Shown: positions 902 to 25,407 of the stretch, in pieces
Layout: the number at the start of each line of letters is the position of its first letter
Numbering within the stretch: the first letter of the stretch is position 1
NCBI GenBank assembly: GCA_963751515.1
Contig: CAVVUR010000002.1
Span: forward strand, 69,888 to 133,887
Source: an uncultured delta proteobacterium
Lineage (GTDB): Bacteria; Desulfobacterota; WTBG01
DNA length: 64,000 bases
Reading direction: 5' to 3'
Notes under the pieces: model-generated
Seen by the model: the letters and a program-made list of their open reading frames with translations, nothing else
The model's database searches: none
What the model was told of the DNA's origin: nothing
Made by a program: the position numbers and the translations under genes

Positions 902-907
902 AGAGGG

Positions 908-1809: not shown

Positions 1810-1835
1810 TGCAGTTTGTGCACAGGAGGTATTTC

Positions 1836-3362: not shown

Positions 3363-3394
3363 CTTAATTATTAATCCCTCGAAGGAGGAGACCC

Positions 3395-5602
3395 GTGTCC
3401 AAGATCATATCATCCGCGGCCATTCGGGGCGCGCACAAGATTGCCCACCGTGTTGAGGAAAAGTACGCCGGGGCGCTGGCCAGGTATGGCCCCGACCAGA
3501 AGATCGGATTTCCCGACACCGCCTATTACCTTCCCATTATCTACTCCATGCTGGGCATCCCGGTGAAGAATCTGGGTGATTGCCAGCTGGTGTTCCGGCG
3601 GAGCCGGACGCTGCTCCCGCCGCTGGTAAAGGAAACCCATCACCTCCCCTACCTGGCCCCCGCCCTGGACGCGGGAATGGCCACCCTCTTCTACGAAGAA
3701 GTGGAGGAGGCGATCCGCTACCTGGAGCAGCCTGAATTTTACCTGACCGGGGAAGAGGTCTCGGACAAAAACATCTGGCTGGGCGCCGCCAATGACATTA
3801 TCCTGAGGAAGCGGGGGGTTGAATTTGTTGACGGCAGCGCGCCCGGCTTCGCCGCGGTGGTGGGCGCTGCCCCCGACAAGGAGACGGCCGCGAACATCGC
3901 CCACGAGCTGCAGCTCAAGAATCTCTATGTGTTCATGGCCTCCCACACCGACGGGGTCAGGTTTTCCGAGCAGCTGGTGGATGCGGGGGTGCAGATCGGC
4001 TGGAACACGCGGCTGGTTTCCTTCGGTCCCGACATCTCAGCGGCGGTGTTTGCGCTGGGGTTTGCGGCGCGCGCCGCCATGGCCTTCGGCGGCATCAAGC
4101 CGGGCGACTTCAGAAAAAACCTCATCTACAACAAGGATCGCATCTTCGCCTTTGTGCTCGCCCTGGGCTTTGTCTCCGATGAGTGGTATGCCAACGCCGC
4201 GGGCTGCATCAATTTCGGGTTTCCGGTCATCGCCGATACCCCCATACCGGAAGTGCTGCCCACGGGGATCTGCACCTATGAGCATGTGGTCTCCAATGTC
4301 CCCCATGACCAGATGGTGGCGCGGTCCATCGAAGTCAGGGGGCTCAAGGTAAGCGTCACCGAGGTTCCCATCCCCGTGGCCTACGGCCCCGCCTTCGAGG
4401 GAGAGCGGGTGCGCGGCGATGACATTTACCTCGAGTGCGGCGGGGGAAGGACGCAGATGATCGAGATCTCTGAGATGAAGGACATGTCGGAGGTCGAGGA
4501 CGGGAAAATCGAGCTGGTGGGCAAGGACATTACCGATGTTCCCGCCAAGAGCAGGCTGCCGCTGGCCATCTTCGTCGAGATTGCCGGCCGCCAGATGCAG
4601 GAGGACTTTCTTCCCATCCTGGAGCGCCAGATCCACCACCTGATCAACTATGCCCAGGGCCTGATGCATATCGGCCAGCGGGATATAGCCTGGATCAGGA
4701 TCGCCAAGCAGGCGGTGGAAAAAGGGCTGACCCTCAAGGACATCGGCAGGATCATCCATGCCATGTTCCACAAGGACTTCGGCGCCATCCTGGACAAGGT
4801 ACAAATCACCCTCTACACCGAGGAGGAGAAGGTGCAGGAAATCACCCGCCGGGCGCGGGAGGTGTTCAAAATCCGCGACGAGCGCATTGCCGGCATGACC
4901 GACGAGGATGAGCCGGTCTACTATTCCTGCACCCTCTGCCAGTCATTCGCCCCGTCCCATGTCTGCGTGGTGACGCCCGAGAGAACAGGGCTGTGCGGCG
5001 CCTACAACTGGCTTGACTGCAAGGCGTCGAACGAGATTAATCCCACCGGTCCCAACCAGCCCATTGAGAAGGGCGAGGTGCTCGACGGCCGCTACGGAAG
5101 CTGGACCGGTGTCAACGGCTTTATCAGGAAGGCCTCCCGCGGCAATGTGCAGTCGGCGAACGCCTACAGCATTATGTCCAATCCCATGACCTCCTGCGGA
5201 TGCTTTGAATGCATCGCCGCCTACCTGGACAAGTGCAACGGGGTGATGACCGTCGACCGGGACTTCAAGGGCGAGTCCACGCCCTGCGGCATGAAATTCA
5301 CCACCCTTGCCGGCACGGTGGGAGGCGGCAACCAGACACCAGGCTTTGTGGGCCACAGCAAGCATTACATCGGTTCAAAAAAGTTTCTCAGGGCCGAAGG
5401 GGGGATCAAGCGCCTGGTGTGGATACCCAGGCACCTCAAGGAAGAGCTTCGCGACAAAATCAATGAGCAGGGAAAGCTCCTGGGCGTGGAGAACCTGGCG
5501 GACCGCATTGCCGATGAAACGGTCGGCCTGACCCAGGAGGAGATACTGCCCTTCCTGAAGGAAAAGAAACATCCGGCACTGGAGATGGAGTCCATGATCT
5601 GA
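3395..5602 (+). CDS. acsB: Acetyl-CoA synthase catalytic subunit (A-cluster; AcsB/CdhC)
   Basis: 735 aa, GTG start after GAAGGAGG. Contains the A-cluster Cys motif SCGCFEC and CxxxxxxC upstream. Length and context are typical of bacterial AcsB. Confidence 0.9.
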   Translation: MSKIISSAAIRGAHKIAHRVEEKYAGALARYGPDQKIGFPDTAYYLPIIYSMLGIPVKNLGDCQLVFRRSRTLLPPLVKETHHLPYLAPALDAGMATLFYEEVEEAIRYLEQPEFYLTGEEVSDKNIWLGAANDIILRKRGVEFVDGSAPGFAAVVGAAPDKETAANIAHELQLKNLYVFMASHTDGVRFSEQLVDAGVQIGWNTRLVSFGPDISAAVFALGFAARAAMAFGGIKPGDFRKNLIYNKDRIFAFVLALGFVSDEWYANAAGCINFGFPVIADTPIPEVLPTGICTYEHVVSNVPHDQMVARSIEVRGLKVSVTEVPIPVAYGPAFEGERVRGDDIYLECGGGRTQMIEISEMKDMSEVEDGKIELVGKDITDVPAKSRLPLAIFVEIAGRQMQEDFLPILERQIHHLINYAQGLMHIGQRDIAWIRIAKQAVEKGLTLKDIGRIIHAMFHKDFGAILDKVQITLYTEEEKVQEITRRAREVFKIRDERIAGMTDEDEPVYYSCTLCQSFAPSHVCVVTPERTGLCGAYNWLDCKASNEINPTGPNQPIEKGEVLDGRYGSWTGVNGFIRKASRGNVQSANAYSIMSNPMTSCGCFECIAAYLDKCNGVMTVDRDFKGESTPCGMKFTTLAGTVGGGNQTPGFVGHSKHYIGSKKFLRAEGGIKRLVWIPRHLKEELRDKINEQGKLLGVENLADRIADETVGLTQEEILPFLKEKKHPALEMESMI

Positions 5603-5625
5603 TGTGCTCATGCAGTGACGTTGTT

Positions 5626-5926
5626 CTAGCAGGCTGTTGAAAAACACCCATCTGATTCGTGGCTCAAAGGGGAGGGGCTTTTGACGCCACAACAATTTGT
5701 CTTTAGACTTACGGCACGACCCGGTGCCTTCGACTTGAACCGAAAGCAGGCAGCTTTGCAGAGACTTCGATACGGCTGCTGCCATGCGGGTCTGTCGGAC
5801 AAAGTTAGAGAGATGCTGCCGTTCTACAGGTTCCGAATACTTTTGTTGTGGCTAAAAAGCCCTTCCCCCTTGAGCCACATACTTTTGAACAGCCTGAGGA
5901 AAGCTATTATTTCAACAGCCTGCTAG
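5626..5926 (+). repeat. Nested palindromic intergenic repeat, copy 1 (core 5659-5878 inside a CTA...TAG-flanked shell, variant A)
   Basis: Core has ~36-bp terminal inverted repeats, GTGGCTCAAAGGGGAGGGGCTTTTGACGCCACAACAA / TTGTTGTGGCTAAAAAGCCCTTCCCCCTTGAGCCAC. Outer inverted repeat is CTAGCAGGCTGTTGAAAAA ... TTTCAACAGCCTGCTAG. Five further copies occur in the window. Confidence 0.9.
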
Positions 5927-5968
5927 TGCGTGCAGGGAAGGGCTGCACCGCGTGCACAGGAGGTAACG

Positions 5969-7324
5969 ATGGCGCTTACCGGAATTGAAATTTTTAAATT
6001 GCTTCCCAAGACAAACTGCCAGGAATGCGGCGTTCCCACCTGCATGGCCTTCGCGGTGAAACTGGCGGCCGGGCAGGCGGAGCTGGACTCCTGTCCCTAT
6101 GTGAGCAAGGAATCGCGGGAGAAGCTGGAGGAGGCCTCCGCGCCGCCCATCCGTCCGGTGGTGATCGGCCCGGGTGAAGGAGCCCTGAAAGTCGGCGGTG
6201 AGACGGTGATGTTCCGGCACGAAAAGACCTTTGTCAACAAGCCCGGCATCGGCCTTCTCATCACCGATGCCATGGGCGATACCGAGCTGGAAGGCAGGCT
6301 GAAAACGTTCAGGGAGCTGGAGTACGAGCGGGTCGGCCTTCTTTTAAAAGCGGACATCGTGGCCGTAAAGGACACCACCGGGGATGCCCGGAAGTTTGCC
6401 GGGACGGTAGAAAAGGTGATAAAGGCGGGGATTAAAAACCTGGTTTTGATGAGCGATACAACCGGGGTCCTGAAGGCGGGGGTAACGGCGGCCGCGGATT
6501 GCAAACCGCTTCTCTATGCGGCAACAAACGAAAATCTCGAGGAACTGGGCAAACTGGCCCTTGAGCAGAGCTGCCCGCTGGCGGTAAAGGGGAACGGCCT
6601 GGAGGAGGTTGCCGCCATGACCGTCAAGCTCACCGAGATGAAGATCAAGGACATCGTTGTGGACACCGGCGCCAGGAAGCTGAGCCAGGCCTTTCAGGAC
6701 CACATCGCCATTCGCAGGGCGGCGCTGGTTGACCGGTTCCGCCCCCTGGGTTTTCCCACCATCGTCTTCCCCTGCGAGATGACCGACGACCCCGTCCAGG
6801 AGGCCATTATCGCCGCAACCTTCATACCCAAGTACGGCGGCATCATCATTCTGTCAACGGTTGAAGGGCACAATCTTTTCCCGCTGGCGCTGCAGCGGAT
6901 GAACATCTATACCGATCCCCAGCGGCCCATGGCCACCACGGAAGGCATTTACGAGATCAACAACCCCGACGAGAACTCGCCGGTGCTGATAACCAGCAAC
7001 TTCTCCCTCACCTATTTTATTGTATCGGGCGAGGTGGAGTCCAGCCGGGTTCCCGCCTGGCTGCTCATCAAGGACACCGAGGGACTTTCGGTGCTCACCG
7101 CCTGGGCGGCGGGAAAGTTTGTGGCCGATGCCATCGCCCCGTTTGTAAAAAAGTGCGGCATCGAGGGAAAGATCAAGCACAGAAAGCTCATCATACCGGG
7201 GGCGGCCGCAACCATCAGCGGAGAACTGGATGAAGAACTTAAGGACTGGGAGGTTCAAATCGGGCCGCGGGAAGCAGCCCACATTACGCCCTTCCTGAAA
7301 AACCTCGCCTCCGGGAAGGCATAA
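5969..7324 (+). CDS. acsC: Corrinoid iron-sulfur protein large subunit (AcsC/CdhE)
   Basis: AGGAGG RBS. N-terminal [4Fe-4S] motif CQECGVPTCMAF...CPY, then TIM-barrel and B12-binding-like regions; lies between acsB and acsE. Confidence 0.85.
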   Translation: MALTGIEIFKLLPKTNCQECGVPTCMAFAVKLAAGQAELDSCPYVSKESREKLEEASAPPIRPVVIGPGEGALKVGGETVMFRHEKTFVNKPGIGLLITDAMGDTELEGRLKTFRELEYERVGLLLKADIVAVKDTTGDARKFAGTVEKVIKAGIKNLVLMSDTTGVLKAGVTAAADCKPLLYAATNENLEELGKLALEQSCPLAVKGNGLEEVAAMTVKLTEMKIKDIVVDTGARKLSQAFQDHIAIRRAALVDRFRPLGFPTIVFPCEMTDDPVQEAIIAATFIPKYGGIIILSTVEGHNLFPLALQRMNIYTDPQRPMATTEGIYEINNPDENSPVLITSNFSLTYFIVSGEVESSRVPAWLLIKDTEGLSVLTAWAAGKFVADAIAPFVKKCGIEGKIKHRKLIIPGAAATISGELDEELKDWEVQIGPREAAHITPFLKNLASGKA

Positions 7325-7475
7325 GATTTCTCATGCCGGCGGGAGTCTGACTGAGTGACAACCGGCAGGAACGGCTTTAAGCCGCAAATGAATGGCATGA
7401 ATGCGCTCCTGCCGAAAGTTCGACCATGTTTGGTTTATTGTTAACGATTGTGACACACACGGGGGGATCAAAGCC

Positions 7476-8363
7476 ATGATAGTAGCCATCGCCGAGAGCA
7501 TTAACATCATGTCCAAGACCATAGGGCCGGCCATGCGGGAGAAAAACCCCAGGCCCATCCAGGAAATGGCCATCGCCGAGGCAGAGGCCGGTGCGCAGTT
7601 TCTCGACGTCAACATAGGGCCCGCGCGCAAGGGCGGCGCCGAGATGATGGAGTGGCTGGTCAGGACCATCCACGAGGTGGTGGATCTGCCCCTCTCGCTT
7701 GATACCACCAACCTGGAGGCCATGGAGGCGGGCTTGAAGGCCCACAAAAAAGGAGGGCGGCCGCTGGTCAATTCCGTTTCCTGTCAGCTTGACCGCATTG
7801 ATCCGGGGCTCGACCTGGTTAAAAAATACGGCGCGCTCATGGTGGGACTGCTTTGGGGAACCGACGGGATGCCGCGGGACGTGAATGAACGGGCGTCCCT
7901 GGCCGTGGATCTTATCATCAAGGCCAACGAAAAGGGGATTCCCAATGAGGATATTTTCATCGATCCCATTGCAACCCCCATCAGCGGAGAGATAAACCAG
8001 GTGAAGGCCTGTCTGGAGTTTATGGGCATGCTGCAGGATCTGGGCCCCGGCTGCAAATCGACTGTGGGATTGTCAAACGTCTCCAATGGCGCCCCTGACG
8101 CATTGCGCCCCTTTTTGAACCGTCCCTATCTCCTCATGCTCCACAAGCAGGGGCTCTACTCGGCTATTGTTGACGCGTACGATAAGGAAATGATGGCCCT
8201 CTGCAAAGGCGGGATGCCGGAACTGCGAGAGCTGGTTGCGAAGCTGATGGAAGGCCGGCCGGTTGATATGGCGGCCCTTTCAGAAAAAGAAAAGCAGTAT
8301 GCCAAATCAGTGAAAGTGCTTCAGGGGCAGGTGCTGTTCTCTAACTCCTGGCTGGACACCTAG
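7476..8363 (+). CDS. acsE: Methyl-THF:corrinoid/iron-sulfur protein methyltransferase
   Basis: Pterin-binding, DHPS-like sequence (FLDVNIGP, LSLDT, NSVS, IDPI, GLSNVS). Start chosen at the internal ATG 7476 of ORF 7401-8363. Confidence 0.85.
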   Translation: MIVAIAESINIMSKTIGPAMREKNPRPIQEMAIAEAEAGAQFLDVNIGPARKGGAEMMEWLVRTIHEVVDLPLSLDTTNLEAMEAGLKAHKKGGRPLVNSVSCQLDRIDPGLDLVKKYGALMVGLLWGTDGMPRDVNERASLAVDLIIKANEKGIPNEDIFIDPIATPISGEINQVKACLEFMGMLQDLGPGCKSTVGLSNVSNGAPDALRPFLNRPYLLMLHKQGLYSAIVDAYDKEMMALCKGGMPELRELVAKLMEGRPVDMAALSEKEKQYAKSVKVLQGQVLFSNSWLDT

Positions 8364-8696
8364 TGTAGTGCGTCATTGATTCCTTTATTTATATGTGGCT
8401 CAAGGGGGAGGGGCTTTTTAGCCACAACAAAATTATTCCGGATCCTGTAGAACGGCAGCGTCTCTCTAACTTTGTCCGACAGACCCGCGTGGCACCAGCC
8501 TGTATCGAAGCCTCTGCAAAGCTGCCTGTCTGCGGTTGAAGTCACAAGGCACCGGGTCGTGCCGTAAGCGTAAAGACACATTGTTGTGGCGTCAAAAGCC
8601 CCTCCCCTTTGAGCCACTGAACCTCTTCTACGGCATGGTATTCGCAACGCACAGGAGCCTTTCATAAGTAAAGATGTGTTGGACGCACTACACTAG
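8360..8696 (-). repeat. Nested palindromic intergenic repeat, copy 2 (core 8395-8617, inverted; shell variant B), followed by a half-copy of the variant-A shell at 8693-8735
   Basis: Same core as copy 1 in opposite orientation. Outer inverted repeat is CTAGTGTAGTGCGTC ... GACGCACTACACTAG. The left TAG (8361-8363) is the acsE stop codon. Confidence 0.9.
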
Positions 8697-8772
8697 CCGG
8701 CTGGTGAAAACACCCATCTGCTGTGTTACGTACAAGATGTGCTTCTCTGCCGGGCGTTAAAGGAGTAGTTGT

Positions 8773-9459
8773 ATGCAGATGCTGTATGAATTGGCCCGGG
8801 GACCGCTGGTGTGGATCTCGGCGCTTATTTTTATGTGCGGCATTGCCGTGCGGGCCCTGCAGCTGTTTTTAGTAACCAGGCGGAAGGAGCGCATCCTTTG
8901 TCCCGCCCGCCCTACCGGGGAAGCCCCTCCCGCGGCCGCAACAGGCGAAGAGAAAAAGATAAACATGATTGTTGCCTTTCAGAACACGCTCATCGGGAAA
9001 AACCCGGTCATGGCCATCGTGAGCGTGATATTCCACAGCTGTCTTTTTCTCGCCCCCCTTCTTGCCCTCGGCCACAGCCTCCTCATCTACGAGTCCTGGG
9101 GGATATCCCTCCCCAGCCTGCCTGACCGGTTGATCGATCTTTTAACCATGATCCTTGTGGCCTGTGCCTTCTTTTTTCTGATGCGCCGCATCGTGATTCC
9201 CCGGGTGCAGGCCATCTCCGGCGCCTATGATTATGCCGTGCTCTTCCTGACCGCCGCTCCGTTTCTGACCGGCCTTTTCGCCTATCATCAGTGGTTTGAT
9301 TACAAGACGGTCATTACCCTGCATATGCTTGCGGGCGAGGCAATGCTTATTGCCATTCCTTTCAGCAAGATCGGGCACATGGTCTTTTTCTTTTTTGTGC
9401 GGATGCTCATGGGCGGCGAATACGCTTTCGGGCGGGGCAACAGGACCTGGTCGCGGTAG
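8773..9459 (+). CDS. NarI/DsrM/HmcE-like integral membrane cytochrome b-type subunit
   Basis: 228 aa with ~5 predicted TM helices and conserved His residues in the helices. Resembles the nitrate reductase gamma / HmcE / DsrM family. AAGGAG RBS. Confidence 0.6.
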   Translation: MQMLYELARGPLVWISALIFMCGIAVRALQLFLVTRRKERILCPARPTGEAPPAAATGEEKKINMIVAFQNTLIGKNPVMAIVSVIFHSCLFLAPLLALGHSLLIYESWGISLPSLPDRLIDLLTMILVACAFFFLMRRIVIPRVQAISGAYDYAVLFLTAAPFLTGLFAYHQWFDYKTVITLHMLAGEAMLIAIPFSKIGHMVFFFFVRMLMGGEYAFGRGNRTWSR

Positions 9460-9477
9460 GAAGGAAAAGGAGACCCG

Positions 9478-9909
9478 ATGTCTGAACATGAGAAACCGGC
9501 GGCCGACACGGCGAAAATCAGGGAGCTGCTCGGGCAGAAAAAGAGCAGGATGAAGCTCTGTCTCGCCGCGTGCGCAAGCTGCAGCCTGTGCGCGGAGAGC
9601 TGTTTTCTTTTCATGAGCCATGACAAGGATCCCCGCTACATGCCCTCGTATAAAGTGGTGCGTTCCCTGGGGCGGCTTTACAAAAAACGCGGCAGGGTAA
9701 ACCGCGCCCAGCTTGAAGAGATGAAGGAGCTGGTCTTCAGGAACTGCGCGCTCTGCGGACGCTGCTATTGTCCCTTCGGCATTGATATTCCCAATATGAT
9801 TGCCTTTGCGCGGTCCATTTTGCGCTCGCAGGGCATTTACGGCATGTATCCGCATTCGGTGGGCGGCCCGGAGGCTGAGTACCGCGACAGCGCCGGGAAG
9901 CAGGAATGA
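9478..9909 (+). CDS. HdrC / HdrD-N-terminal-like 2x[4Fe-4S] protein (no CCG domain)
   Basis: 143 aa with two ferredoxin-type Cys clusters, CASCSLCAESC and CALCGRCYCP. No CCG-domain Cys motifs are visible in it or downstream. Confidence 0.6.
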   Translation: MSEHEKPAADTAKIRELLGQKKSRMKLCLAACASCSLCAESCFLFMSHDKDPRYMPSYKVVRSLGRLYKKRGRVNRAQLEEMKELVFRNCALCGRCYCPFGIDIPNMIAFARSILRSQGIYGMYPHSVGGPEAEYRDSAGKQE

Positions 9910-9951
9910 TGGGGGTGCAGCACGTCGAGCACGTTCGATGGCTAACCTTGT

Positions 9952-10081
9952 CACCCTGAATCCTTTGCTGTCATTCTGAGCGCAGCGAAGAATCTCATAG
10001 AATCAAATAAAATGGAGATTCTTCGGCTGATGCCTCAGAATGACATTATGACACAGTCTCACAAGGGAGAGGGTCAGGGTG
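9952..10081. repeat. Nested palindromic element carrying the GTCATTCTGAGCGCAGCGAAGAATCTC motif
   Basis: Inner inverted repeat GTCATTCTGAGCGCAGCGAAGAATCTC / GAGATTCTTCGGCTGATGCCTCAGAATGAC (9970-10044). Outer inverted repeat CACCCTGA / TCAGGGTG. The same motif recurs at 22617 and 23091. Confidence 0.8.
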
Positions 10082-10127
10082 AGGGGTAAGTGATGAGAAG
10101 TGAAATCCACGCAAGGGAGCGTAAGAC

Positions 10128-10805
10128 ATGGTTATAGCGGAGATTAAGCCACTGGAAGAGATAAAGGCGATGCTCAGGGGCTATGGGCAGGTGCTTACGG
10201 TGGGATGCGGAGGATGCGTCGCCGTCTGCCTGGCCGGGGGCCAGAAGGAAGTTGACAATTTGAACCTCCGTCTGTCGCTGTCATTCAAAGGGGAGGGGAT
10301 CCCCTTCAGCATCGGCGGGTATACAGTGGAGCGCCAGTGCGAGGTGCCCTTTTTGACCGAGCTTGACCGGATGGTCAAACCGTACGGGGCGCTTCTCTCC
10401 ATGGCCTGCGGTGCGGGCATTCAATTTCTGGCGGAGCGGTTTCCCGACCAGCCGGTTTTCCCGGCGGTCAACACCACCTTTGTGGGTGTCAACCGGGATA
10501 TCGGATGGTATGAAGAGCGCTGCAAGTGCTGCGGGGACTGCGTGCTGGACATGACCGCCGGAATTTGTCCGGTGACCATGTGCGCCAAATCCCTCTTTAA
10601 CGGGCCCTGCGGCGGGCCCAAAGACGGCCATTGCGAGGTAAGCGCGGACATCCCCTGCGCCTGGGTGAATATCTACGAACGGCTGAAGGCGCAGGGCAGG
10701 CTGGACGGCATTCATAAAATATACGCCCCCAGGGAGTGGCAGGACCAGATTCAGAGAAGCACTATTTTGGAAGAGTACCGGGAGAGATATACGCCGAAAT
10801 CCTGA
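10128..10805 (+). CDS. metV: Methylene-THF reductase accessory subunit MetV (MTHFR C-terminal-domain protein)
   Basis: 225 aa, Cys-rich. Carries the motif CPVTMCAKSLFNGPCGG typical of MetV-type proteins and lies immediately upstream of metF. Confidence 0.8.
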   Translation: MVIAEIKPLEEIKAMLRGYGQVLTVGCGGCVAVCLAGGQKEVDNLNLRLSLSFKGEGIPFSIGGYTVERQCEVPFLTELDRMVKPYGALLSMACGAGIQFLAERFPDQPVFPAVNTTFVGVNRDIGWYEERCKCCGDCVLDMTAGICPVTMCAKSLFNGPCGGPKDGHCEVSADIPCAWVNIYERLKAQGRLDGIHKIYAPREWQDQIQRSTILEEYRERYTPKS

Positions 10806-10874
10806 AAAGCCACATGCCCTGCCCTTCTGATTCAGCCGGGAGCCGGGGCACAGCATCCAAACGGGAGCCGCGAG

Positions 10875-11798
10875 ATGAAATCAGGAAGCAATTTGGAGAA
10901 GGTGCTCAGCGCGGGGAAATTCGCCGTAACCGGGGAGCTCGGCCCTCCCCGGGGGGCGGACGCGGAGGTGATACAGGAAAAGGCGAAGCATTTCAAAGCC
11001 ACGGTTGACGCCATCAATATTACCGACAACCAGACGGCGGTGGTGCGCATGGCCAGCTGGGCAGCCTGCACCCTGCTCATCAGGGAGGGGCTGGAGCCCA
11101 ATTACCAGATGGTCTGCAGGGACCGCAACCGCATTGCCATGCAATCCGACATCCTGGGGGCATATGCCCTGGGCATCAGGAACATGCTCTGCCTCTCCGG
11201 CGACCACCAGATCTTCGGCGACCACCCCAAAAGCAAGAAGGTGTTTGACATTGATTCAGTCCAGCTCATCGGCATGGTCAAAAAGATGCGCGACGAGAAG
11301 ACATTTTTAAACGGCGAGGCGCTTACCAAGGCCCCCGAAATGTTTATCGGTGCCGCCGCGAACCCTTTTGCCGAGCCCTACGAATTCAGGGTCCACCGGC
11401 TGGCCAAAAAGATAGCGGCGGGAGTCGACTTCATACAGACCCAGTGCATTTATAACATGGAGCGGTTCAGGGCGTGGATCACGCAGGCGCGCGACATGGG
11501 TCTCACCGAAAAGGTGTACATCCTGGCCGGGGTCACCCCCATGAAGTCGCTGGGCATGGCGCGCTACATGCAGAAAAACGTTCCCGGCATGGATGTCCCC
11601 GACTGGGTGATCAAGCGGATTGAGGGCGTTGAGAAAAAGGCCCAGGCGGCCGAGGGCATCGCCATCTGCTGCGAGCAGATCGAGGAATTCAAAACCATGA
11701 AAGGGGTGGCAGGGATCCACCTTATGGCCATCGAGTGGGAGCACCGCGTCCCGGAGATTGTCCAGAAGGCCGGGCTGCTGCCCCGCCCCGTTGCGTAA
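10875..11798 (+). CDS. metF: 5,10-methylenetetrahydrofolate reductase
   Basis: 307 aa with a MetF-like TIM barrel (AINITDN, LCLSGDH, FIGAAANP, DFIQTQ). Confidence 0.85.
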   Translation: MKSGSNLEKVLSAGKFAVTGELGPPRGADAEVIQEKAKHFKATVDAINITDNQTAVVRMASWAACTLLIREGLEPNYQMVCRDRNRIAMQSDILGAYALGIRNMLCLSGDHQIFGDHPKSKKVFDIDSVQLIGMVKKMRDEKTFLNGEALTKAPEMFIGAAANPFAEPYEFRVHRLAKKIAAGVDFIQTQCIYNMERFRAWITQARDMGLTEKVYILAGVTPMKSLGMARYMQKNVPGMDVPDWVIKRIEGVEKKAQAAEGIAICCEQIEEFKTMKGVAGIHLMAIEWEHRVPEIVQKAGLLPRPVA

Positions 11799-11830
11799 GA
11801 TCATACCGGTTTACAGGTCAGGGCACGTGA

Positions 11831-13594
11831 ATGAATAAGAAATGGTTGGCATTGGTGGTCATGGCGTCTTTTTGTATCTGTCTGGGGATCATCGGGAAGA
11901 AGTCAGGTGTTTCCTCGGAAGAAGCGGCGGTGGATGCGGTGGTTCAGGAAAGCGGCATCACCGAGGAGACGCTCGCGCCCGACGTGCAGCCTCCTGCAGT
12001 GGAAAAAAAGGAATTGCCGGAGCGGCCGCGCTTTATCACGCTGCCGGAACTGTTTAAGGAGCTTGAGAGGGCGCCGGTAAAGTTCAACCACGACAGGCAC
12101 GCGCGCAGGTTAGAAAAGGATGGGTGCACCCTCTGCCATGCCAAGAACGACGATGAAAAGCTCCTGTTTACCTTTCCCAAGGAGCGGGACGAGAGCGATA
12201 AAGACGCGCTGATGAATTCGTATCACGACACCTGCATCACCTGCCACCAGGAGAAAACCGGCGCGGGGGAGAAGGGGGGGCCGGTCACCTGCGGGGAATG
12301 TCATGTCATCGGCGGGGAGTATCTGAAGCGGGAATATCTCCCGGTCATGCCTGAGTACTACGAGGTATTGCGAGACACCTATCACAAGGACTGCATTTCC
12401 TGTCACCAGGAACCCGCCACGGCGGCGGAAGATGCCGGGGGCCTTGACTGGAAGGCCTTCTATGTGAAGGAACGCGCCCTGACCGAAGATGCCTGGCCCA
12501 AGGTTCTCTTTGACTACCTGATTCACGACAAGCACAGCAAAACGCTCGAAGAGAAATGCGAGCTCTGCCATTATATTTCCCCTGAGCGTAAAGCGCAGCT
12601 GGCGGCCGAGGGAAAAGAGCCCGCCTGCAAGGACTGGCTCAGGGAGATTGACGCAAAGAACAGCTTGACCGAGGAGGAGAGCGCACACTTCCGCTGCTTA
12701 AACTGCCATTTTGCGCGGAAAGAGAAACAGGAGAAGGGTGGGCCGCTTTACTGCAATGAATGCCACACGGGTACAGAGCGCACCATCGAAGAAATGGCCG
12801 CTGTTTCCCGCCAGGACTGTGAACAGGAGGAGAAGATCCTTATCATGATAGAAGAAGGGTCCCGGGCCAAGGGGGTGCCGTTCAACCACAAGGGACACCA
12901 GGAAAAAACCCGTTCCTGCCAGGACTGCCACCATCAAACCCTGCGGCCCTGTGTTGAATGCCATACGGTGGAGGGGTGCGACGAGGGTGAAGGCATCACC
13001 CTGGCAGAGGCATATCACCAGGCTTCATCGCCCTGGAGCTGCATCGGATGTCATGAAATTGAAAAGAAGAAGGCGGACTGCGCCGGCTGCCACCACCGCC
13101 TCAAGGGAGGACTGGTTGAATCCTCCTGCGGCACCTGCCACACAGGGGAGCTTGCAAGCCTTGAAACGGCCAAAAAACTTCCTGACCCGAAGGAGCTGTT
13201 CCCCGATGACCTTGAGGATGAGCTGGAGATCAAGGTCCTGGAAAACGAGTACCGGCCTTCAAAGGTAAAACACCTGCAGATCCTGAGGAAGCTCACTGAC
13301 ATTTCAAACGAAAGCAAGCTGGCACAGCATTTTCATGTTGAGGAGAACACCGTCTGCGCCGGCTGCCACCATCTGGGACCCCTGGAGAAGCGGGCACAGG
13401 TTCCGTCCTGCGCGACGTGCCACACCGTCCGCAAGGAACCCGAGTCTGCTACACCAACCCTGCTCGGCGCCTATCACCAGCAGTGCCTGGGCTGCCACAA
13501 GCAGATGGGCGGCAAGGAAGAAGACATGCCTCAGACCTGCACCGGCTGTCATGAGGAGAAGAAGGCAGAACAGGCTCAGGCGGTCAAAGAATAG
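11831..13594 (+). CDS. 16-haem periplasmic cytochrome c (HmcA-like)
   Basis: 587 aa with an N-terminal signal/anchor. I counted 16 CxxCH motifs, the number found in high-molecular-weight cytochrome HmcA. Confidence 0.85.
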   Translation: MNKKWLALVVMASFCICLGIIGKKSGVSSEEAAVDAVVQESGITEETLAPDVQPPAVEKKELPERPRFITLPELFKELERAPVKFNHDRHARRLEKDGCTLCHAKNDDEKLLFTFPKERDESDKDALMNSYHDTCITCHQEKTGAGEKGGPVTCGECHVIGGEYLKREYLPVMPEYYEVLRDTYHKDCISCHQEPATAAEDAGGLDWKAFYVKERALTEDAWPKVLFDYLIHDKHSKTLEEKCELCHYISPERKAQLAAEGKEPACKDWLREIDAKNSLTEEESAHFRCLNCHFARKEKQEKGGPLYCNECHTGTERTIEEMAAVSRQDCEQEEKILIMIEEGSRAKGVPFNHKGHQEKTRSCQDCHHQTLRPCVECHTVEGCDEGEGITLAEAYHQASSPWSCIGCHEIEKKKADCAGCHHRLKGGLVESSCGTCHTGELASLETAKKLPDPKELFPDDLEDELEIKVLENEYRPSKVKHLQILRKLTDISNESKLAQHFHVEENTVCAGCHHLGPLEKRAQVPSCATCHTVRKEPESATPTLLGAYHQQCLGCHKQMGGKEEDMPQTCTGCHEEKKAEQAQAVKE

Positions 13595-13612
13595 AAGGCA
13601 CACAAAGCATTC

Positions 13613-14536
13613 ATGAGAAGTTCCAGACGGACATTTTTACAAAGGACAGCGGGTGTTGCCGGTCTGCTCCTGCTGAGCGGCCGGAGAGAGTCCGAAGCAT
13701 CCCGTCTGCAGGTCAATCCGGATCAGTGCGGCGTGCTGGTTGACACAACGCGCTGCGTGGGATGCCGGAACTGCGAAAAGGCCTGTAATGAGATAAACGA
13801 AGACCTTCCCCGCAGGCCGGCGGAGTGGTTTAAGGATGAGTCGGCATTGATGGAGAAGCGGCGGATGGACTATGGAGCTTACACCGTGGTCAACCGCTAT
13901 GAAAGCACGCCGGGAAGCAAGCCCTATTTTACAAAATTTCAGTGCATGCACTGCCTATACCCTGCCTGCGTTTCCGCCTGCATCGTCGGCGCTTTTACCC
14001 GGGACCCCAGCGGGGCGGTCATCTATGACGCCTGGAAGTGCATTGGCTGCCGCTACTGCATGGCTGCCTGTCCTTTCCAGGTGCCCGCGTATGAATTCGG
14101 CAACGTACTGACGCCTCAGGTGAGAAAGTGCACTTTCTGCTTCCAGACACGGCTGGCGAAGGGCGGAGTGCCCGCCTGCGTGGAATCATGCCCCATGGAG
14201 GTTATGACCTTCGGGAAGCGGAATGACCTTATCATGCGGGGAAGAGAACTGATCCGGAAATACCCCGGCGTCTATGTCCCTCATATCTATGGTGAGCAGG
14301 AGGCGGGAGGAACTGCGTGGCTTTATTTATCAGGTGTTCCTTTCGGGGAAATAGATTTCCCCACCCTTGGATACCATCCCTCGCCGGGCTTTACCGAACC
14401 GATTCAGCATACTATTTTTAAATGGTTTCTCCCGCCGATGGGATTGTACGCAACCCTGGGCGGCATCATGTGGTACCTGCGGAACAGAAAAAAAAGTAAT
14501 AATCCCAACCAGGATGCGCAGGGGAAACGGGGCTGA
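13613..14536 (+). CDS. Periplasmic 4x[4Fe-4S] ferredoxin-like subunit with Tat signal (HmcB/HybA/PsrB-like)
   Basis: Twin-arginine signal SRRTFLQ, several CxxCxxCxxxC clusters and a C-terminal TM helix. Confidence 0.8.
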   Translation: MRSSRRTFLQRTAGVAGLLLLSGRRESEASRLQVNPDQCGVLVDTTRCVGCRNCEKACNEINEDLPRRPAEWFKDESALMEKRRMDYGAYTVVNRYESTPGSKPYFTKFQCMHCLYPACVSACIVGAFTRDPSGAVIYDAWKCIGCRYCMAACPFQVPAYEFGNVLTPQVRKCTFCFQTRLAKGGVPACVESCPMEVMTFGKRNDLIMRGRELIRKYPGVYVPHIYGEQEAGGTAWLYLSGVPFGEIDFPTLGYHPSPGFTEPIQHTIFKWFLPPMGLYATLGGIMWYLRNRKKSNNPNQDAQGKRG

Positions 14537-14538
14537 TC

Positions 14539-15750
14539 ATGGACGTTCACCAACACGCGGCACCGGTGCAGAAAAAGTTTTTTACCCGGGGCATGATAAT
14601 GCTGACCGCAATCATGCTCAGCGGGCTCGCGTTCGGCCTCTACCGCATGTTATTCGGCCTTAAGGCAGTCACCAATTTAAATGACCAGTATCCGCTGGGT
14701 CTCTGGATCGGGGTTGATGTGGCCACCGGTGTCGCGCTGGCGGCCGGCGGCTTTACTTCGGGCGCGCTGGTCTACGTTTTCAACCGCGAGAACTTTCACG
14801 CGGTCATCCGCCCTGCCCTGCTGACCGCCCTGCTCGGCTACACCTTTGTGGGTATCGGGCTCATGTTTGACCTGGGACGCTGGTATAACATCTGGCATCC
14901 GGCGGTTCCCTCCATGTGGCAGGGAAATTCCGTGCTGTTTGAAGTCGGCATGTGCGTGATGATCTATCTGACGGTCCTGTATATGGAGTTTGTCCCCGTT
15001 GTCTGCGAGCGTTTCATCGGTCGCGTCAAACTTCCCGGCCCGCTCGGCCGGTTTAATGACAGGGTGGACATTGCGCTCCGGTTCGCCGACCATATCCTGG
15101 GCCGGATCATGTTTCTCTTCATCATTGCCGGCATAACCCTCTCCTGCCTGCACCAGTCCTCCCTCGGCACCCTTATGGTCATTGCCCCTTACAAGATGCA
15201 CCCCCTCTACCGATCGCAACTGGGACCGCTCTTCTTCCTTACCTCCGCCTTCGCAGTGGGACTTTGCATGATCATCTTTGAATCGATGATTGCCGGCAGG
15301 GCCTTCGGGCGAAAACCGGAGATGCATGTGCTCACCCCGCTCGCAAAAATCATCCCCTGGCTGCTGGGTTTGTACATTGCCGTCAAGCTGGGAGATATGC
15401 TATGGAGGGGAAGTTACCTCTATCTTATGGATGACCATCCTGCAGTTATAATGTTCTGGATTGAATTCGGCCTCCTGACCGTGGCGCCGTTCTTCATGTT
15501 CATGTCATCGGATATCCGCCGCTCGCCCCGCTCTCTTTTTATCGCCGCCTCCATGTATATCGTCGGGATTCTGCTAAACCGGTCAACCGTCTTTTTCATT
15601 GCTTACCAGCCGCGCTACGCGGTTAAGGCCTATGTTCCCGCCATGGGTGAATTTGCCCTGACCATCGGACTCATTCTCACCGTTGTTTTTATCTACCGCG
15701 CCCTGGTATCCCTGCTGCCGGTGCTGCCCGCTCCGGAAAAAGAGAGCTGA
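14539..15750 (+). CDS. NrfD/PsrC-family quinone-interacting membrane subunit (HmcC-like)
   Basis: 403 aa, ~10 TM helices; translationally coupled to the preceding FeS subunit (2-nt gap). Confidence 0.75.
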   Translation: MDVHQHAAPVQKKFFTRGMIMLTAIMLSGLAFGLYRMLFGLKAVTNLNDQYPLGLWIGVDVATGVALAAGGFTSGALVYVFNRENFHAVIRPALLTALLGYTFVGIGLMFDLGRWYNIWHPAVPSMWQGNSVLFEVGMCVMIYLTVLYMEFVPVVCERFIGRVKLPGPLGRFNDRVDIALRFADHILGRIMFLFIIAGITLSCLHQSSLGTLMVIAPYKMHPLYRSQLGPLFFLTSAFAVGLCMIIFESMIAGRAFGRKPEMHVLTPLAKIIPWLLGLYIAVKLGDMLWRGSYLYLMDDHPAVIMFWIEFGLLTVAPFFMFMSSDIRRSPRSLFIAASMYIVGILLNRSTVFFIAYQPRYAVKAYVPAMGEFALTIGLILTVVFIYRALVSLLPVLPAPEKES

Positions 15751-19867: not shown

Positions 19868-19880
19868 TGCGGCTTCCTTA

Positions 19881-20702: not shown

Positions 20703-20976
20703 CGGACCAGATCTCCTTAAAATAATTTTACGGAACCATTTCAGTTTCTTAGAGAAATTACAATATCAGGGGCATGTCTTATATTAACGGCCCAAAAAAT
20801 ATTTTGTCATTTATTATTAATAATACTATATATAACATAATTTAAGAAAGCAATCAACATGCCTCCATTCTGGTATGTGTGGCCTGCTTAAAAGTTAGTA
20901 ACTAAATAATATAATTGATGAAATAAAGGAATTGTTTGATTTGAAGCATATCCTGTGTGAAGCTCCCCCCTTTTTG

Positions 20977-21005
20977 TTGACGTTTAGCAGCGATGATTAT
21001 ATAAA
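20977..21005 (+). promoter_or_regulatory. Candidate sigma70-type promoter of pyrE
   Basis: TTGACG (20977-20982), 17-nt spacer, TATAAA (21000-21005), in an AT-rich gap ~30 nt upstream of pyrE. Confidence 0.45.
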
Positions 21006-21037
21006 TACTTTGTTCCCACATGAGAAAAGGAGATTAT

Positions 21038-21724: not shown

Positions 21725-21821
21725 AACCGTAGTAGGAACCAAAAAATCTTTTAGAAAAAAACCTACCAAGAGAAAAGAATATCCTGTAGAGCACTTCTGT
21801 ACCTGCTGAGAGTTCATCCCC

Positions 21822-25398: not shown

Positions 25399-25407
25399 GA
25401 CTGCACT

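What the first reader, a model, noticed from the sequence alone, without database searches (positions are those of the whole stretch)
8773..15750. metV-metF embedded in an Hmc-like transmembrane redox cluster: candidate membrane/periplasm-coupled methylene-THF reductase
The gene order is: NarI/HmcE-like cytochrome b, HdrC/HmcF-N-terminal-like 2x[4Fe-4S] protein, metV, metF, 16-haem HmcA-like cytochrome, Tat-exported HmcB-like FeS protein, NrfD/HmcC-like subunit. All are co-oriented with short gaps, directly downstream of acsE. Together they resemble a rearranged HmcABC..EF complex with MetVF inserted. Known MetVF partners are cytoplasmic (the HdrABC-MvhD type). A link to a quinone or periplasmic cytochrome module would give the methyl-/methylene-THF couple (about -200 mV) a membrane-associated electron route. 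The way this step is coupled in organisms that run the pathway oxidatively remains debated.
Basis: inference. Interest (0 to 1): 0.65.

Follow-up and report, generated by a model that had tools for sequence, protein, structure and literature searches.

The report
Membrane-wired methylene-tetrahydrofolate reductase gene cluster
A key enzyme of the Wood-Ljungdahl carbon pathway (MetVF) is encoded here in one block with a membrane cytochrome b, a small iron-sulfur adaptor and a periplasmic 16-haem cytochrome module, and this link recurs in about 100 other genomes and metagenome contigs, which points to a membrane connection for this enzyme that has long been proposed but not found in genomes.

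Summary
Window 8773-15750 (+) encodes seven genes directly after cooC-folD-acsDBCE:
- a TmcC/HmcE-type dihaem cytochrome b
- a 143-aa 2x[4Fe-4S] protein matching only the N-terminal third of HmcF/TmcB, with no CCG domains
- MetV and MetF
- a 16-CXXCH HmcA-like cytochrome
- a Tat-signal HmcB/HybA-like FeS protein
- an HmcC/HybB NrfD-type subunit

- In 80 of 80 species-level genomes carrying the small FeS protein, it lies next to metV and/or metF, nearly always with the cytochrome b.
- The link survives four gene orders, with a 16-haem HmcABC module, a 4-haem TmcA-like cytochrome, or no detected cytochrome c.
- Natural cytochrome b-FeS fusions exist.
- MetF proteins 73-77% identical sit in canonical hdrABC-mvhD clusters instead, so the membrane module and Hdr look like alternative partners of near-identical MetVF cores.

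Most likely this is a Tmc/Hmc-type transmembrane redox complex whose disulfide-reducing domain has been replaced by MetVF. It would link the methyl-/methylene-THF couple to periplasmic cytochromes c and/or menaquinone. No description was found in the searchable literature. All evidence is genomic; direction and energy coupling are inferred. I rate it a new variant of known kinds, with interest about 0.7.

The parts
8773..9459 (+). Integral-membrane dihaem cytochrome b of the TmcC/HmcE (NarI-like) family, 228 aa
   Evidence: NCBIfam gives TmcC 4.4e-56 and HmcE 4.2e-46, both full length and both below the equivalog cut-offs. Four His residues (H88, H101, H184, H202) are conserved in 99% of 73 orthologues, and there are about 5 hydrophobic helices. 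A good RBS (AAAGGAG) lies upstream.
9478..9909 (+). Cytoplasmic 2x[4Fe-4S] adaptor protein, 143 aa. It corresponds to the N-terminal ferredoxin domain of HmcF/TmcB/DsrK and lacks the CCG catalytic domains
   Evidence: NCBIfam HmcF model positions 39-152 of 457, 4.7e-29. Pfam Fer4_8/Fer4_17. Eight Cys residues are invariant in the motifs CxxCxxCxxxC and CxxCxxCxC. The family has at least 594 clusters at 90% identity; the 120 listed are 124-178 aa long. No signal peptide.
10128..10805 (+). metV, the FeS/Zn small subunit of MetVF-type methylene-THF reductase, 225 aa
   Evidence: Pfam PF12225, 4.9e-36. 14 Cys residues.
10875..11798 (+). metF, the flavin-containing catalytic subunit of methylene-THF reductase, 307 aa
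   Evidence: Pfam PF02219, 4.6e-40, full length. 67-96% identical to the MetF copies next to cytochrome b-FeS in other genomes.
11831..13594 (+). Periplasmic 16-haem cytochrome c, HmcA-like, 587 aa, with an N-terminal signal/anchor
   Evidence: 16 CXXCH motifs. NCBIfam HmcA 391 bits against a cut-off of 400. Hydrophobic segment at residues 4-22.
13613..14536 (+). Tat-exported periplasmic multi-[4Fe-4S] protein, HmcB/HybA-like, 307 aa, with a probable C-terminal membrane anchor
   Evidence: SRRTFLQ motif at residues 4-10. NCBIfam HmcB 324 bits and HybA 243 bits. Pfam Fer4_11.
14539..15750 (+). NrfD-family integral membrane subunit, HybB/HmcC-like, 403 aa; the usual quinone-interacting partner of the HmcB/HybA type of protein
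   Evidence: Pfam NrfD 9.1e-14. NCBIfam HybB 349 bits, HmcC 254 bits, QrcD 119 bits. Eight or more hydrophobic segments by a crude hydropathy scan.
116..8363 (+). Upstream Wood-Ljungdahl genes on the same strand: cooC (116-901), folD (about 909-1809, frameshifted), acsD (1809-3362), acsB (3395-5602), acsC (5930-7324), acsE (7401-8363)
   Evidence: Pfam. The same order precedes the cluster in L001, L004, L005, L007 and others.
8395..8617 (.). MITE-like inverted-repeat element inserted in the acsE-cytochrome b spacer. It is not part of the complex, but it explains the long gap
   Evidence: 24-nt arms that are 96% complementary. Six arm matches at four sites in the window against 0.01 expected. 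Absent from close relative L007.

Best explanation
The block encodes a membrane-anchored MetVF methylene-THF reductase. It is a Tmc/Hmc-type transmembrane redox complex in which MetV-MetF takes the place of the disulfide-reducing CCG domains of the cytoplasmic subunit (TmcB/HmcF).

Proposed electron path, which is reversible:
1. MetF flavin (methylene-THF/methyl-THF, about -200 mV)
2. MetV FeS centres
3. the two [4Fe-4S] clusters of the 143-aa adaptor
4. the two haems b of the TmcC/HmcE-type cytochrome b, which span the membrane
5. the periplasmic HmcB-like FeS protein and the 16-haem cytochrome (and through them the soluble cytochrome c3 pool, hydrogenases and formate dehydrogenases), and/or menaquinone at the NrfD-type subunit

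In the reductive direction, periplasmic H2 or formate would reduce cytoplasmic methylene-THF. Protons would be released outside and consumed inside, which generates proton-motive force. In the oxidative direction (acetyl-CoA oxidation), electrons from methyl-THF would be exported, helped by the membrane potential, to cytochromes c or menaquinone.

Shown: the gene content, the domain truncation, the cofactor motifs, the conserved linkage and the fusions. Inferred: physical assembly with MetVF, participation of HmcABC in the same complex, direction and energy coupling.
For: 1. Domain logic. The FeS protein matches only HmcF model positions 39-152 of 457 and has no CCG domain. This short form is a stable family rather than a broken gene: at least 594 clusters, the 120 listed being 124-178 aa, with eight invariant Cys.
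2. Strict linkage. In 80 of 80 GTDB species genomes the FeS gene is adjacent to metV and/or metF. In 72 a near-full-length cytochrome b hit was recovered, and most of the rest are cut by contig ends.
3. Rearrangement. Four gene orders occur, with met genes interleaved:
   - cytb-FeS-metV-metF-hmcABC
   - metF-cytb-FeS-metV-hmcABC
   - metF-cytb-FeS-c3-metV
   - metV-cytb-FeS-metF
4. A periplasmic cytochrome c recurs in different forms. It is the 16-haem HmcA plus HmcBC here, and a signal-peptide tetrahaem TmcA-like protein in the Syntrophaceae-type loci.
5. Rosetta-stone fusion. P0124 is cytochrome b (residues 6-238 aligned, 38% identity to the window protein, E 2e-50) fused to the FeS domain. 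A c3 cytochrome gene follows it.
6. Wire-like cytochrome b. Four His residues are invariant in 73 orthologues, as expected for a dihaem NarI-type wire.
7. Module swap. MetF proteins 73-77% identical to the window's lie in canonical hdrC-hdrB-hdrA or hdrA-mvhD clusters (L114, L138). Near-identical MetVF cores therefore pair either with Hdr or with the membrane module.
8. Operon context. The block follows acsE on the same strand, with short spacers in relatives and no intergenic terminator-like site.
9. Biochemical precedent. [quoted passage not shown] Methylene-THF reductase activity was also measured in the membrane fraction of Thermacetogenium phaeum, with benzyl viologen and weakly with the quinone analogue AQDS (PMC6895022).
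Against: - There is no experimental evidence for any member of this family: no transcript, complex or activity data.
- MetV and MetF have no predicted transmembrane segments, so docking to the adaptor is inferred from synteny only. No multimer model could be run.
- The monomer model of the adaptor was poor (pLDDT 52).
- MetVF enzymes purified from acetogens work with reduced ferredoxin as soluble enzymes (PMC9430772).
- At least one window-type relative also carries hdrA-mvhD-metVF next door, so MTHFR activity need not depend on this cluster.
- Menaquinol (about -74 mV) cannot reduce methylene-THF without an energy input, so a purely quinone-coupled reductive role is thermodynamically awkward.
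- The Desulfobacterales-type loci show no cytochrome c detectable with the window's HmcA, so the periplasmic link is not universal.
Confidence: 0.7

Rival explanations
1. The core is real but HmcABC is separate. Cytochrome b + FeS + MetVF form a DsrMK/HdrED-like methyl-THF:menaquinone oxidoreductase. The HmcA-HmcB-HmcC genes encode an independent Qrc/Hyb-like cytochrome c:menaquinone oxidoreductase that is merely co-transcribed and communicates only through the quinone pool.
For: - The Desulfobacterales-type loci (metV-cytb-FeS-metF) have no detected cytochrome c gene, so the core can stand alone.
- The HmcB- and HmcC-like proteins also score as HybA/HybB and QrcC/QrcD, which are quinone-coupled modules.
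- Methyl-THF (-200 mV) to menaquinone (-74 mV) is exergonic, which follows from established potentials.
Against: - Every window-type locus with enough downstream sequence (17 of 17) continues from metF into hmcA, and into hmcB and hmcC as far as the contig reaches. A second order (metF-cytb-FeS-metV-hmcABC) keeps the same set together.
- Other lineages insert a TmcA-like cytochrome c between the FeS gene and metV, which argues for a direct periplasmic partner of the cytochrome b.
- In the canonical Hmc complex the A-B-C and E-F parts belong to one complex (established knowledge of Desulfovibrio Hmc).
Confidence: 0.2
2. The linkage is coincidental or regulatory only. MetVF is an ordinary soluble ferredoxin-dependent reductase. 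Cytochrome b, the FeS protein and HmcABC form an Hmc-like complex that serves another cytoplasmic acceptor, for example ferredoxin, and sits in the Wood-Ljungdahl operon only for co-regulation.
For: Purified MetVF enzymes use reduced ferredoxin and are soluble (PMC9430772; PMC8578096). A two-cluster ferredoxin-like adaptor could in principle reduce a soluble ferredoxin.
Against: - Adjacency in 80 of 80 genomes, with met genes interleaved between or around cytb-FeS in four orders, is hard to explain by co-regulation alone.
- In many loci the acs genes are absent from the sequence held, yet metV and/or metF remain adjacent.
- The adaptor has lost the only catalytic domain of its parent family.
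- Near-identical MetVF cores sit with HdrABC-MvhD where the membrane module is missing.
Confidence: 0.08
3. Degenerate remnant: the 143-aa gene is a truncated, decaying hmcF, and the cluster is a broken Hmc operon into which metVF was inserted.
For: The window does contain signs of damage or sequencing error elsewhere (frameshifted folD) and inserted repeat elements.
Against: - The short form is conserved at about 120-180 aa in at least 594 clusters and in 80 species genomes, with invariant cluster ligands.
- All seven ORFs in the window are intact.
Confidence: 0.02

Closest known systems
Hmc complex (HmcABCDEF) of Desulfovibrio vulgaris
   Same: A 16-haem periplasmic cytochrome, a Tat-exported FeS protein, an NrfD-type subunit, a NarI-type cytochrome b and a cytoplasmic FeS subunit. 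It is a transmembrane electron conduit between the periplasmic cytochrome c3 pool and the cytoplasm.
   Different: - The gene order is E-F'-metV-metF-A-B-C instead of A-F.
- There is no HmcD.
- The HmcF counterpart keeps only the ferredoxin domain and lacks the CCG domains.
- All subunits score below the NCBIfam equivalog cut-offs.
- The cytoplasmic catalytic partner is MetVF rather than a disulfide/DsrC-type site.
Tmc complex (TmcABCD) of Desulfovibrio
   Same: The cytochrome b is closest to TmcC. Sister loci carry a TmcA-like tetrahaem cytochrome and a TmcB-N-like FeS protein. The architecture is the same: cytochrome c, cytochrome b, cytoplasmic FeS protein.
   Different: TmcB is truncated. 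No TmcD was identified. In the window a 16-haem cytochrome plus HmcBC replaces TmcA. MetVF is attached.
Hdr-type MetVF methylene-THF reductase (MetFV-HdrABC-MvhD; Moorella thermoacetica, Sporomusa ovata)
   Same: The MetV-MetF catalytic core is the same; MetF proteins in Hdr-type clusters are 73-77% identical to the window's. Both have a partner containing an HdrC/HdrD-type two-cluster ferredoxin domain (Fer4_8/Fer4_17).
   Different: The partner here is membrane-integral and periplasm-facing (cytochrome b, c-type cytochromes). It has no HdrA flavoprotein, HdrB CCG domains or MvhD. No electron-bifurcating flavoprotein is encoded in the block.
DsrMK / HdrED (cytochrome b + HdrD-like quinol- or methanophenazine-linked reductases)
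   Same: A NarI-type dihaem cytochrome b paired with a cytoplasmic protein that starts with the same two-[4Fe-4S] domain (DsrK hit 4.8e-13). Both link a membrane redox pool to a cytoplasmic reduction.
   Different: The catalytic CCG domains with the non-cubane cluster are absent. The substrate would be methylene-THF handled by a separate flavoenzyme.

Membership tests
Hmc complex (HmcABCDEF) | 16-haem periplasmic cytochrome HmcA | tested here: met
   16 CXXCH motifs. NF045713 scores 391 bits, just under the 400-bit cut-off.
Hmc complex (HmcABCDEF) | Periplasmic FeS subunit HmcB and NrfD-type HmcC at equivalog level | tested here: inconclusive
   HmcB scores 324 bits against a cut-off of 420. 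HmcC scores 254 bits against 550, while HybB scores higher at 349 bits. The domain types are right, but the equivalog thresholds are not reached.
Hmc complex (HmcABCDEF) | Small membrane subunit HmcD | tested here: not met
   No additional ORF of at least 80 aa lies on the + strand between or beside the seven genes, and the inner gaps are at most 218 bp. An HmcD homologue was not searched for by sequence.
Hmc complex (HmcABCDEF) | Full-length HmcF with C-terminal CCG (HdrD-like) domains | tested here: not met
   Only model positions 39-152 of 457 are matched, and Pfam finds no CCG domain. A full-length relative, P0141, does show CCG.
Tmc complex (TmcABCD) | TmcC-type cytochrome b membrane anchor | tested here: inconclusive
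   NF045723 gives 4.4e-56 and 190 bits over full length, below the 240-bit cut-off. It is the best-scoring family.
Tmc complex (TmcABCD) | TmcA tetrahaem cytochrome, full-length TmcB and TmcD | tested here: not met
   The window has a 16-haem protein instead of TmcA. The TmcB counterpart is truncated. No TmcD candidate was seen, though it was not specifically searched for.
MetVF-type methylene-THF reductase | MetF (PF02219) with adjacent MetV (PF12225) | tested here: met
   E-values 4.6e-40 and 4.9e-36; the two genes are adjacent, 69 bp apart.
Hdr-type MTHFR (MetFV-HdrABC-MvhD) | hdrA, hdrB (CCG), hdrC and mvhD adjacent to metVF | tested here: not met
   None in the block or among the window ORFs that were scanned. 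They are present in comparison loci L114, L138 and L024. The rest of the genome could not be examined.
RnfC2-type MTHFR (Acetobacterium woodii) | RnfC-like NADH-oxidising subunit next to metVF | tested here: not met
   No RnfC-like domain in the block.
NarI-type dihaem cytochrome b | Four conserved haem-ligating His residues in two transmembrane helices | tested here: met
   H88 and H101, then H184 and H202, each conserved in 99% of 73 orthologues, and located in or next to the predicted hydrophobic segments. Haem binding itself is not testable here.
Physical cytochrome b-FeS-MetVF complex (the claim made here) | Subunits co-purify and transfer electrons to each other | not testable with these tools
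   Only gene linkage and a cytochrome b-FeS fusion are available.

The most novel reading that the evidence does not exclude
This cluster, with its Tmc-like and cytochrome-c-less sister forms, would be a genetically hard-wired version of the proposed respiratory coupling site of the Wood-Ljungdahl pathway: a methylene-THF reductase that works as the terminal (or, in reverse, the initial) enzyme of a transmembrane electron transport chain.

In the reductive direction, periplasmic H2 or formate oxidation would drive cytoplasmic methylene-THF reduction and generate proton-motive force. This 'folate respiration' is the chain proposed for Sporomusa ovata, where no membrane partner has been identified.

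In complete-oxidising sulfate reducers and syntrophic acetate oxidisers, the same complex run backwards would be the missing exit for the -200 mV electrons of methyl-THF. It would use the membrane potential for reverse electron transport to periplasmic cytochromes, hydrogenases or formate dehydrogenases.
Probability: 0.45. Interest if true: 0.85.

Novelty: new variant of a known kind. Interest (0 to 1): 0.72.

Why it matters
How the methylene-THF reductase step is coupled to energy conservation is a long-standing open point in Wood-Ljungdahl bioenergetics. The step is the most exergonic redox reaction of the reductive pathway and an energetic barrier in its oxidative direction.

- Reviews state that genome sequences gave no evidence for membrane localisation (PMC8578096).
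- The Sporomusa ovata study could not identify the membrane-integral partner (PMC9430772).
- For acetate oxidisers the route of the methyl-THF electrons is only postulated (PMC6895022; PMC6295475).

A conserved operon that places MetVF between a transmembrane cytochrome b and periplasmic cytochromes gives a concrete hypothesis that can be tested genetically and biochemically. It occurs in lineages that are abundant in sediments, soils and digesters. It would change how ATP yields, electron budgets and syntrophic electron export are modelled for these organisms. It also shows a new way in which Tmc/Hmc-type complexes are re-used, by swapping their cytoplasmic catalytic module.

Tried and rejected
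- **Structure of the adaptor.** AlphaFold2 on a 22-sequence alignment gave mean pLDDT 52 and pTM 0.39. This is too poor for a fold search, so none was run.
- **Solved structures.** Sequence searches of the PDB with MetV and with the adaptor found nothing at E <= 0.01.
- **MetV N-terminal half.** Pfam at E <= 1 found no family, so no link to CCG or FlpD domains could be shown.
- **Apparent fusion in L060.** The 404-codon open frame is only stop-free upstream sequence in another gene's frame, not a fusion. Real fusions were found later (P0124, P0126).
- **Exact-sequence look-up of the window's MetF.** Not on record.
- **Promoter and terminator scan.** Only 2 promoter-like sites against 6.7 expected, and no terminator-like site in the spacers between the cluster genes. 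This is uninformative for transcription units.
- **Rfam.** Only one tRNA in the window and nothing in the spacers.
- **Literature.** Nine full-text searches and several papers were read. No description of a cytochrome b/FeS-MetVF or Hmc/Tmc-MetVF cluster was found.
  - The only hint is an unexplained label 'MetF-ABC' in a figure legend of the Desulfobacterium autotrophicum HRM2 genome paper (PMC2702500).
  - The comparative-genomics review of sulfate reducers by Pereira et al. 2011 was not held, so prior mention cannot be excluded.
- **Pseudogene reading of the truncated hmcF.** Rejected on conservation.
- **Organism.** It could not be named beyond 'uncultured delta proteobacterium'. The closest match is L007, MAG MFD03899.bin.1.233, at 92-98% amino-acid identity for the intact genes.

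Full report
**1. What is in the window**

ORF listing and translation show thirteen co-oriented genes on the + strand from 116 to 15750. Pfam identifies the first six:
- cooC (116-901)
- folD (about 909-1809, broken by frameshifts)
- acsD (1809-3362)
- acsB (3395-5602)
- acsC (5930-7324)
- acsE (7401-8363)

The finding's block follows:
- **8773-9459, cytochrome b.** A 228-aa membrane protein that matches the TmcC (4.4e-56) and HmcE (4.2e-46) models over full length.
- **9478-9909, small FeS protein.** A 143-aa protein with Fer4_8/Fer4_17 domains. It aligns only to positions 39-152 of the 457-position HmcF model and to 31-137 of TmcB. It is the ferredoxin-like N-terminal domain of the HdrD-like cytoplasmic subunit, without the CCG domains.
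- **10128-10805, MetV** (PF12225, 4.9e-36).
- **10875-11798, MetF** (PF02219, 4.6e-40).
- **11831-13594, 16-haem cytochrome.** A 587-aa protein with exactly 16 CXXCH motifs and an N-terminal hydrophobic signal (HmcA model, 391 bits against a cut-off of 400).
- **13613-14536, periplasmic FeS protein.** It carries an SRRTFLQ twin-arginine motif (HmcB 324 bits, HybA 243 bits).
- **14539-15750, NrfD-family membrane protein** (HybB 349 bits, HmcC 254 bits).

Three points need correcting:
- There is no HmcD.
- The cytochrome b scores a little better as TmcC than as HmcE.
- The NrfD subunit scores better as HybB than as HmcC.

All the Hmc/Tmc-family scores are below NCBI's equivalog cut-offs, so these are relatives of the Desulfovibrio proteins, not orthologues.

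**2. Spacers and transcription**

Inner gaps are 18, 218, 69, 32, 18 and 2 bp. The 409-bp gap after acsE looked like a possible operon boundary. However, it contains a ~225-bp element with 24-nt inverted ends. The end motif matches six times at four sites in the window, against 0.01 matches expected; one site lies in the acsB-acsC spacer, and the four elements align with each other. The closest relative (L007, 92-98% amino-acid identity for the intact genes) lacks the element and has an acsE-cytochrome b spacer of about 80 bp. In L004 the spacers within the block are about 20-160 bp. The consensus scan found no terminator-like site in any spacer. Co-transcription is thus plausible but not shown.

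**3. The truncated FeS protein is a real family**

A search of 5.8 billion proteins returned 594 relatives at E <= 1e-5. The 120 best are all 124-178 aa long and carry only the two-cluster domain. Eight cysteines in two motifs (CxxCxxCxxxC and CxxCxxCxC) are invariant in a 22-sequence alignment. In the 1.84-billion representative library the family is compact, with 15 clusters at E <= 1e-30. Full-length relatives such as P0141 (434 aa) do carry CCG domains. The 143-aa gene is therefore not a decayed hmcF.

**4. Linkage to metVF, tested from the FeS side**

A scan of one genome per GTDB species with the family alignment gave 116 confirmed loci, of which the best 80 were kept. tblastn with the window's proteins and ORF measurement gave these results:
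- The FeS ORF is short in all 80 loci.
- It has metV and/or metF as an immediate neighbour in 80 of 80.
- The cytochrome b is found directly upstream wherever the contig allows. A near-full-length hit was recovered in 72 loci.

Four gene orders occur:

| Type | Gene order | Loci | Notes |
|---|---|---|---|
| A | cytb-FeS-metV-metF-hmcA-hmcB-hmcC | about 20 | The window type. In 17 of 17 loci with enough downstream sequence hmcA follows metF. Usually directly after acsE. |
| A' | metF-cytb-FeS-metV-hmcABC | 5 | |
| B | metF-cytb-FeS-c3-metV-(second metF) | about 36 | Mostly MAGs labelled Syntrophaceae or Thermodesulfobacteriota. |
| C | metV-cytb-FeS-(metF) | about 19 | Desulfobacterales, including MAGs labelled Desulfotignum. 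|

In type B the roughly 500-bp space between the FeS gene and metV holds a 134-188-codon ORF with a signal peptide and 4 CXXCH motifs. It scores as TmcA, and the type B cytochrome b scores as TmcC at 215 bits.

Most record titles name delta-proteobacterial or Thermodesulfobacteriota MAGs. A few are labelled Planctomycetaceae, Thermoguttaceae, Victivallales, Acidobacteriota, Thermodesulfovibrionia, Spirochaetota or Myxococcota. Those labels were not verified.

Exact-protein look-ups independently showed the full type A order in JGI, NCBI and Logan assemblies.

**5. Linkage tested from the MetF side**

A metagenome scan with the window's MetF returned 80 loci with 73-85% identity. Among the 34 loci with at least 2.5 kb on both sides, 13 carry cytb-FeS and 21 have only metV-metF. 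All loci at 78% identity or more with enough flanking sequence are type A.

Two of the plain loci were inspected:
- L114 reads hdrC-hdrB-hdrA, then metV-metF.
- L138 reads metV-metF, then hdrA, an hdrA/mvhD fusion and hdrC.

These are the canonical Hdr-type reductase. Near-identical MetVF cores therefore come with either the soluble Hdr module or the membrane module. That is what would be expected if both are alternative electron-transfer partners of MetVF.

One type A relative (L024) carries hdrA-mvhD-metV-metF directly after hmcC, with MetV and MetF 45-46% identical to the window's. Both systems can therefore co-exist in one genome.

**6. Evidence that the cytochrome b and the FeS protein form one unit**

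- P0124 (375 aa) is a natural fusion. Its residues 6-238 align with the window's cytochrome b (38% identity, E 2e-50), and the FeS domain lies at 252-370. A 143-aa c3-type cytochrome gene follows it.
- P0126 is a second such fusion.
- The cytochrome b has four His residues conserved in 99% of 73 orthologues (H88/H101 and H184/H202), in or next to predicted hydrophobic segments. This is the pattern of NarI-type dihaem cytochromes, which carry electrons across the membrane (established knowledge of NarI, DsrM and HdrE).

**7. Mechanism proposed**

Shown:
- a transmembrane dihaem cytochrome b
- a cytoplasmic two-cluster adaptor derived from TmcB/HmcF that has lost its catalytic CCG part
- MetV and MetF always next to them
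- a periplasmic c-type cytochrome module in most forms

Inferred:
- The adaptor docks to MetV and passes electrons between the haems b and the MetF flavin.
- The complex thereby connects the methyl-/methylene-THF couple (about -200 mV) with the periplasmic cytochrome c pool, and possibly with menaquinone through the NrfD-type subunit.

With periplasmic H2 or formate as donor, the reaction is exergonic. It would generate proton-motive force by charge separation. This is the scheme deduced for Sporomusa ovata membranes, where the membrane partner of MetVF remained unidentified (PMC9430772).

Run in reverse, the complex offers an exit for methyl-THF electrons. This would serve complete-oxidising sulfate reducers and syntrophic acetate oxidisers. 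Export of electrons to the positive side of the membrane could use the membrane potential to reach lower-potential acceptors. That is the kind of reversed electron transport postulated for Thermacetogenium phaeum (PMC6895022).

Menaquinol alone (-74 mV) could not drive the reductive direction. This is why I favour the cytochrome c route for reduction and regard quinone as a possible acceptor in oxidation. The direction used by the window's organism cannot be decided: among the window ORFs that were scanned, none is a sulfate-reduction gene.

**8. Rivals**

- **HmcABC is a separate Qrc/Hyb-like module that is only co-transcribed (0.2).** The cytochrome-c-less type C and the HybAB/Qrc similarity support this. 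Against it stand the invariant metF-hmcA continuation in types A and A', and the TmcA-like gene wedged between the FeS gene and metV in type B.
- **Pure co-regulation, with MetVF soluble and ferredoxin-dependent (0.08).** This fits the enzymology of acetogen MetVF. It does not explain 80 of 80 linkage through four rearrangements, linkage in loci where no acs genes are seen, or the loss of the CCG domain.
- **A decaying hmc operon (0.02).** Conservation excludes this.

**9. Comparison with known systems**

The block is not a member of the canonical Hmc or Tmc complexes: HmcD is missing, HmcF/TmcB is truncated, the order is rearranged and the scores are below cut-off. It is a member of the MetVF reductase family in its core. 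It is not the Hdr-type or the RnfC2-type.

Functionally it resembles Tmc/Hmc and DsrMK/HdrED, with MetVF in the place of the CCG catalytic domain. Equivalently, it resembles an Hdr-type MTHFR whose soluble HdrABC-MvhD module has been replaced by a membrane module.

**10. Novelty**

Nine full-text searches and the papers read found no description of this linkage. A review states that genome sequences gave no evidence for membrane localisation of the reductase (PMC8578096).

The Desulfobacterium autotrophicum genome paper lists 'MetF-ABC' in a figure legend without explanation (PMC2702500). That label may reflect early notice of the type C neighbourhood. A key comparative review (Pereira et al. 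2011) was not available.

NCBIfam has no model for the adaptor or for this cytochrome b subfamily, and sources name the adaptor only 'Fe-S oxidoreductase' or '(Fe-S)-binding protein'.

I rate it a new variant of known kinds. It is of high interest because it turns an old bioenergetic question into a defined experiment. The rating is tempered by the purely genomic evidence and by the chance of an unseen prior mention.

Noticed in passing
window 5659-5878, 8395-8617 (outer arms 8360-8401 / 8655-8696), about 49083-49300, about 51156-51380: A MITE-like element of about 225 bp with 24-nt terminal inverted repeats (GTGGCTCAAGGGGGAGGGGCTTTT). The end motif matches six times at four sites, against 0.01 matches expected. 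Two sites sit in spacers of the acs-met operon, and the acsE-cytochrome b copy is absent from the 93-98% identical relative L007.
   Followed up: partly
window 909-1809: folD is split by at least two frameshifts, near 1143 and near 1455. It is either a pseudogene or carries indel errors of a long-read assembly. The relative L007 likewise shows hmcA and hmcC broken into several frames.
   Followed up: partly
window 9910-10127: The 218-bp FeS-metV spacer contains a short motif (GTCATTCTGAGCGCAGCGAAGAATCTC) that resembles a repeat seen in the corresponding spacer region of L001. It may be another small mobile or structured element.
   Followed up: no
L024 16528-20411: A window-type relative carries hdrA-like (split), mvhD (FlpD), and a second metV and metF (45-46% identical to the window's) directly after hmcC. 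Membrane-type and Hdr-type reductases therefore sit side by side in one genome.
   Followed up: partly
L087 93-1632 (protein P0124); also P0126: Natural fusion of the TmcC-like cytochrome b with the two-cluster FeS domain (375 aa), followed by a 143-aa c3-type cytochrome gene, on a 1.8-kb contig.
   Followed up: partly
L082 12165-20342 and other type B loci (L049, L057, L079): The Syntrophaceae-type loci hold several extra MTHFR paralogues: a second metF 35-39% identical right after metV, a 669-aa MetF-MetV fusion on the opposite strand, and a further MTHFR-domain gene. Their roles are unknown.
   Followed up: no
window 1809-5602 compared with L004/L005: Relatives L004 and L005 have a CODH catalytic subunit gene (Prismane domain, about 655 aa) between acsD and acsB. 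The window and L001 do not, so the CODH subunit must be encoded elsewhere in them.
   Followed up: no
window 47959-48951 (-), 50311-51126, 52738-53934, 54772-56085, 59134-60921, 61371-63980: A second redox gene set:
- GltD/NfnB-like protein
- DUF3786
- NuoD-like protein
- Fe-hydrogenase-like protein with a corrinoid-type FeS domain
- NuoF-like protein
- NuoG/molybdopterin FdhA-like protein

It is probably an NAD-linked or bifurcating formate dehydrogenase/hydrogenase that serves the same pathway.
   Followed up: partly
window 15800-19930 (-), 29637-31619 (+); GC profile 20000-38000; tRNA 35632-35706 (-): There is a 1376-aa protein with a dockerin domain and Dicty_CTDC repeats, and a 660-aa protein with nine such repeats. 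The region 20-38 kb has lower GC (0.45-0.51 against 0.55-0.63 over 1-20 kb) and contains the window's only tRNA. It may be a genomic island.
   Followed up: no
L010, L011, L014, L016, L018 (record titles): Window-type clusters occur in MAGs labelled Thermoguttaceae, Victivallales and Planctomycetaceae, with the FeS protein 64-75% identical. This reflects either horizontal transfer outside Thermodesulfobacteriota or mis-binning or mislabelling.
   Followed up: no
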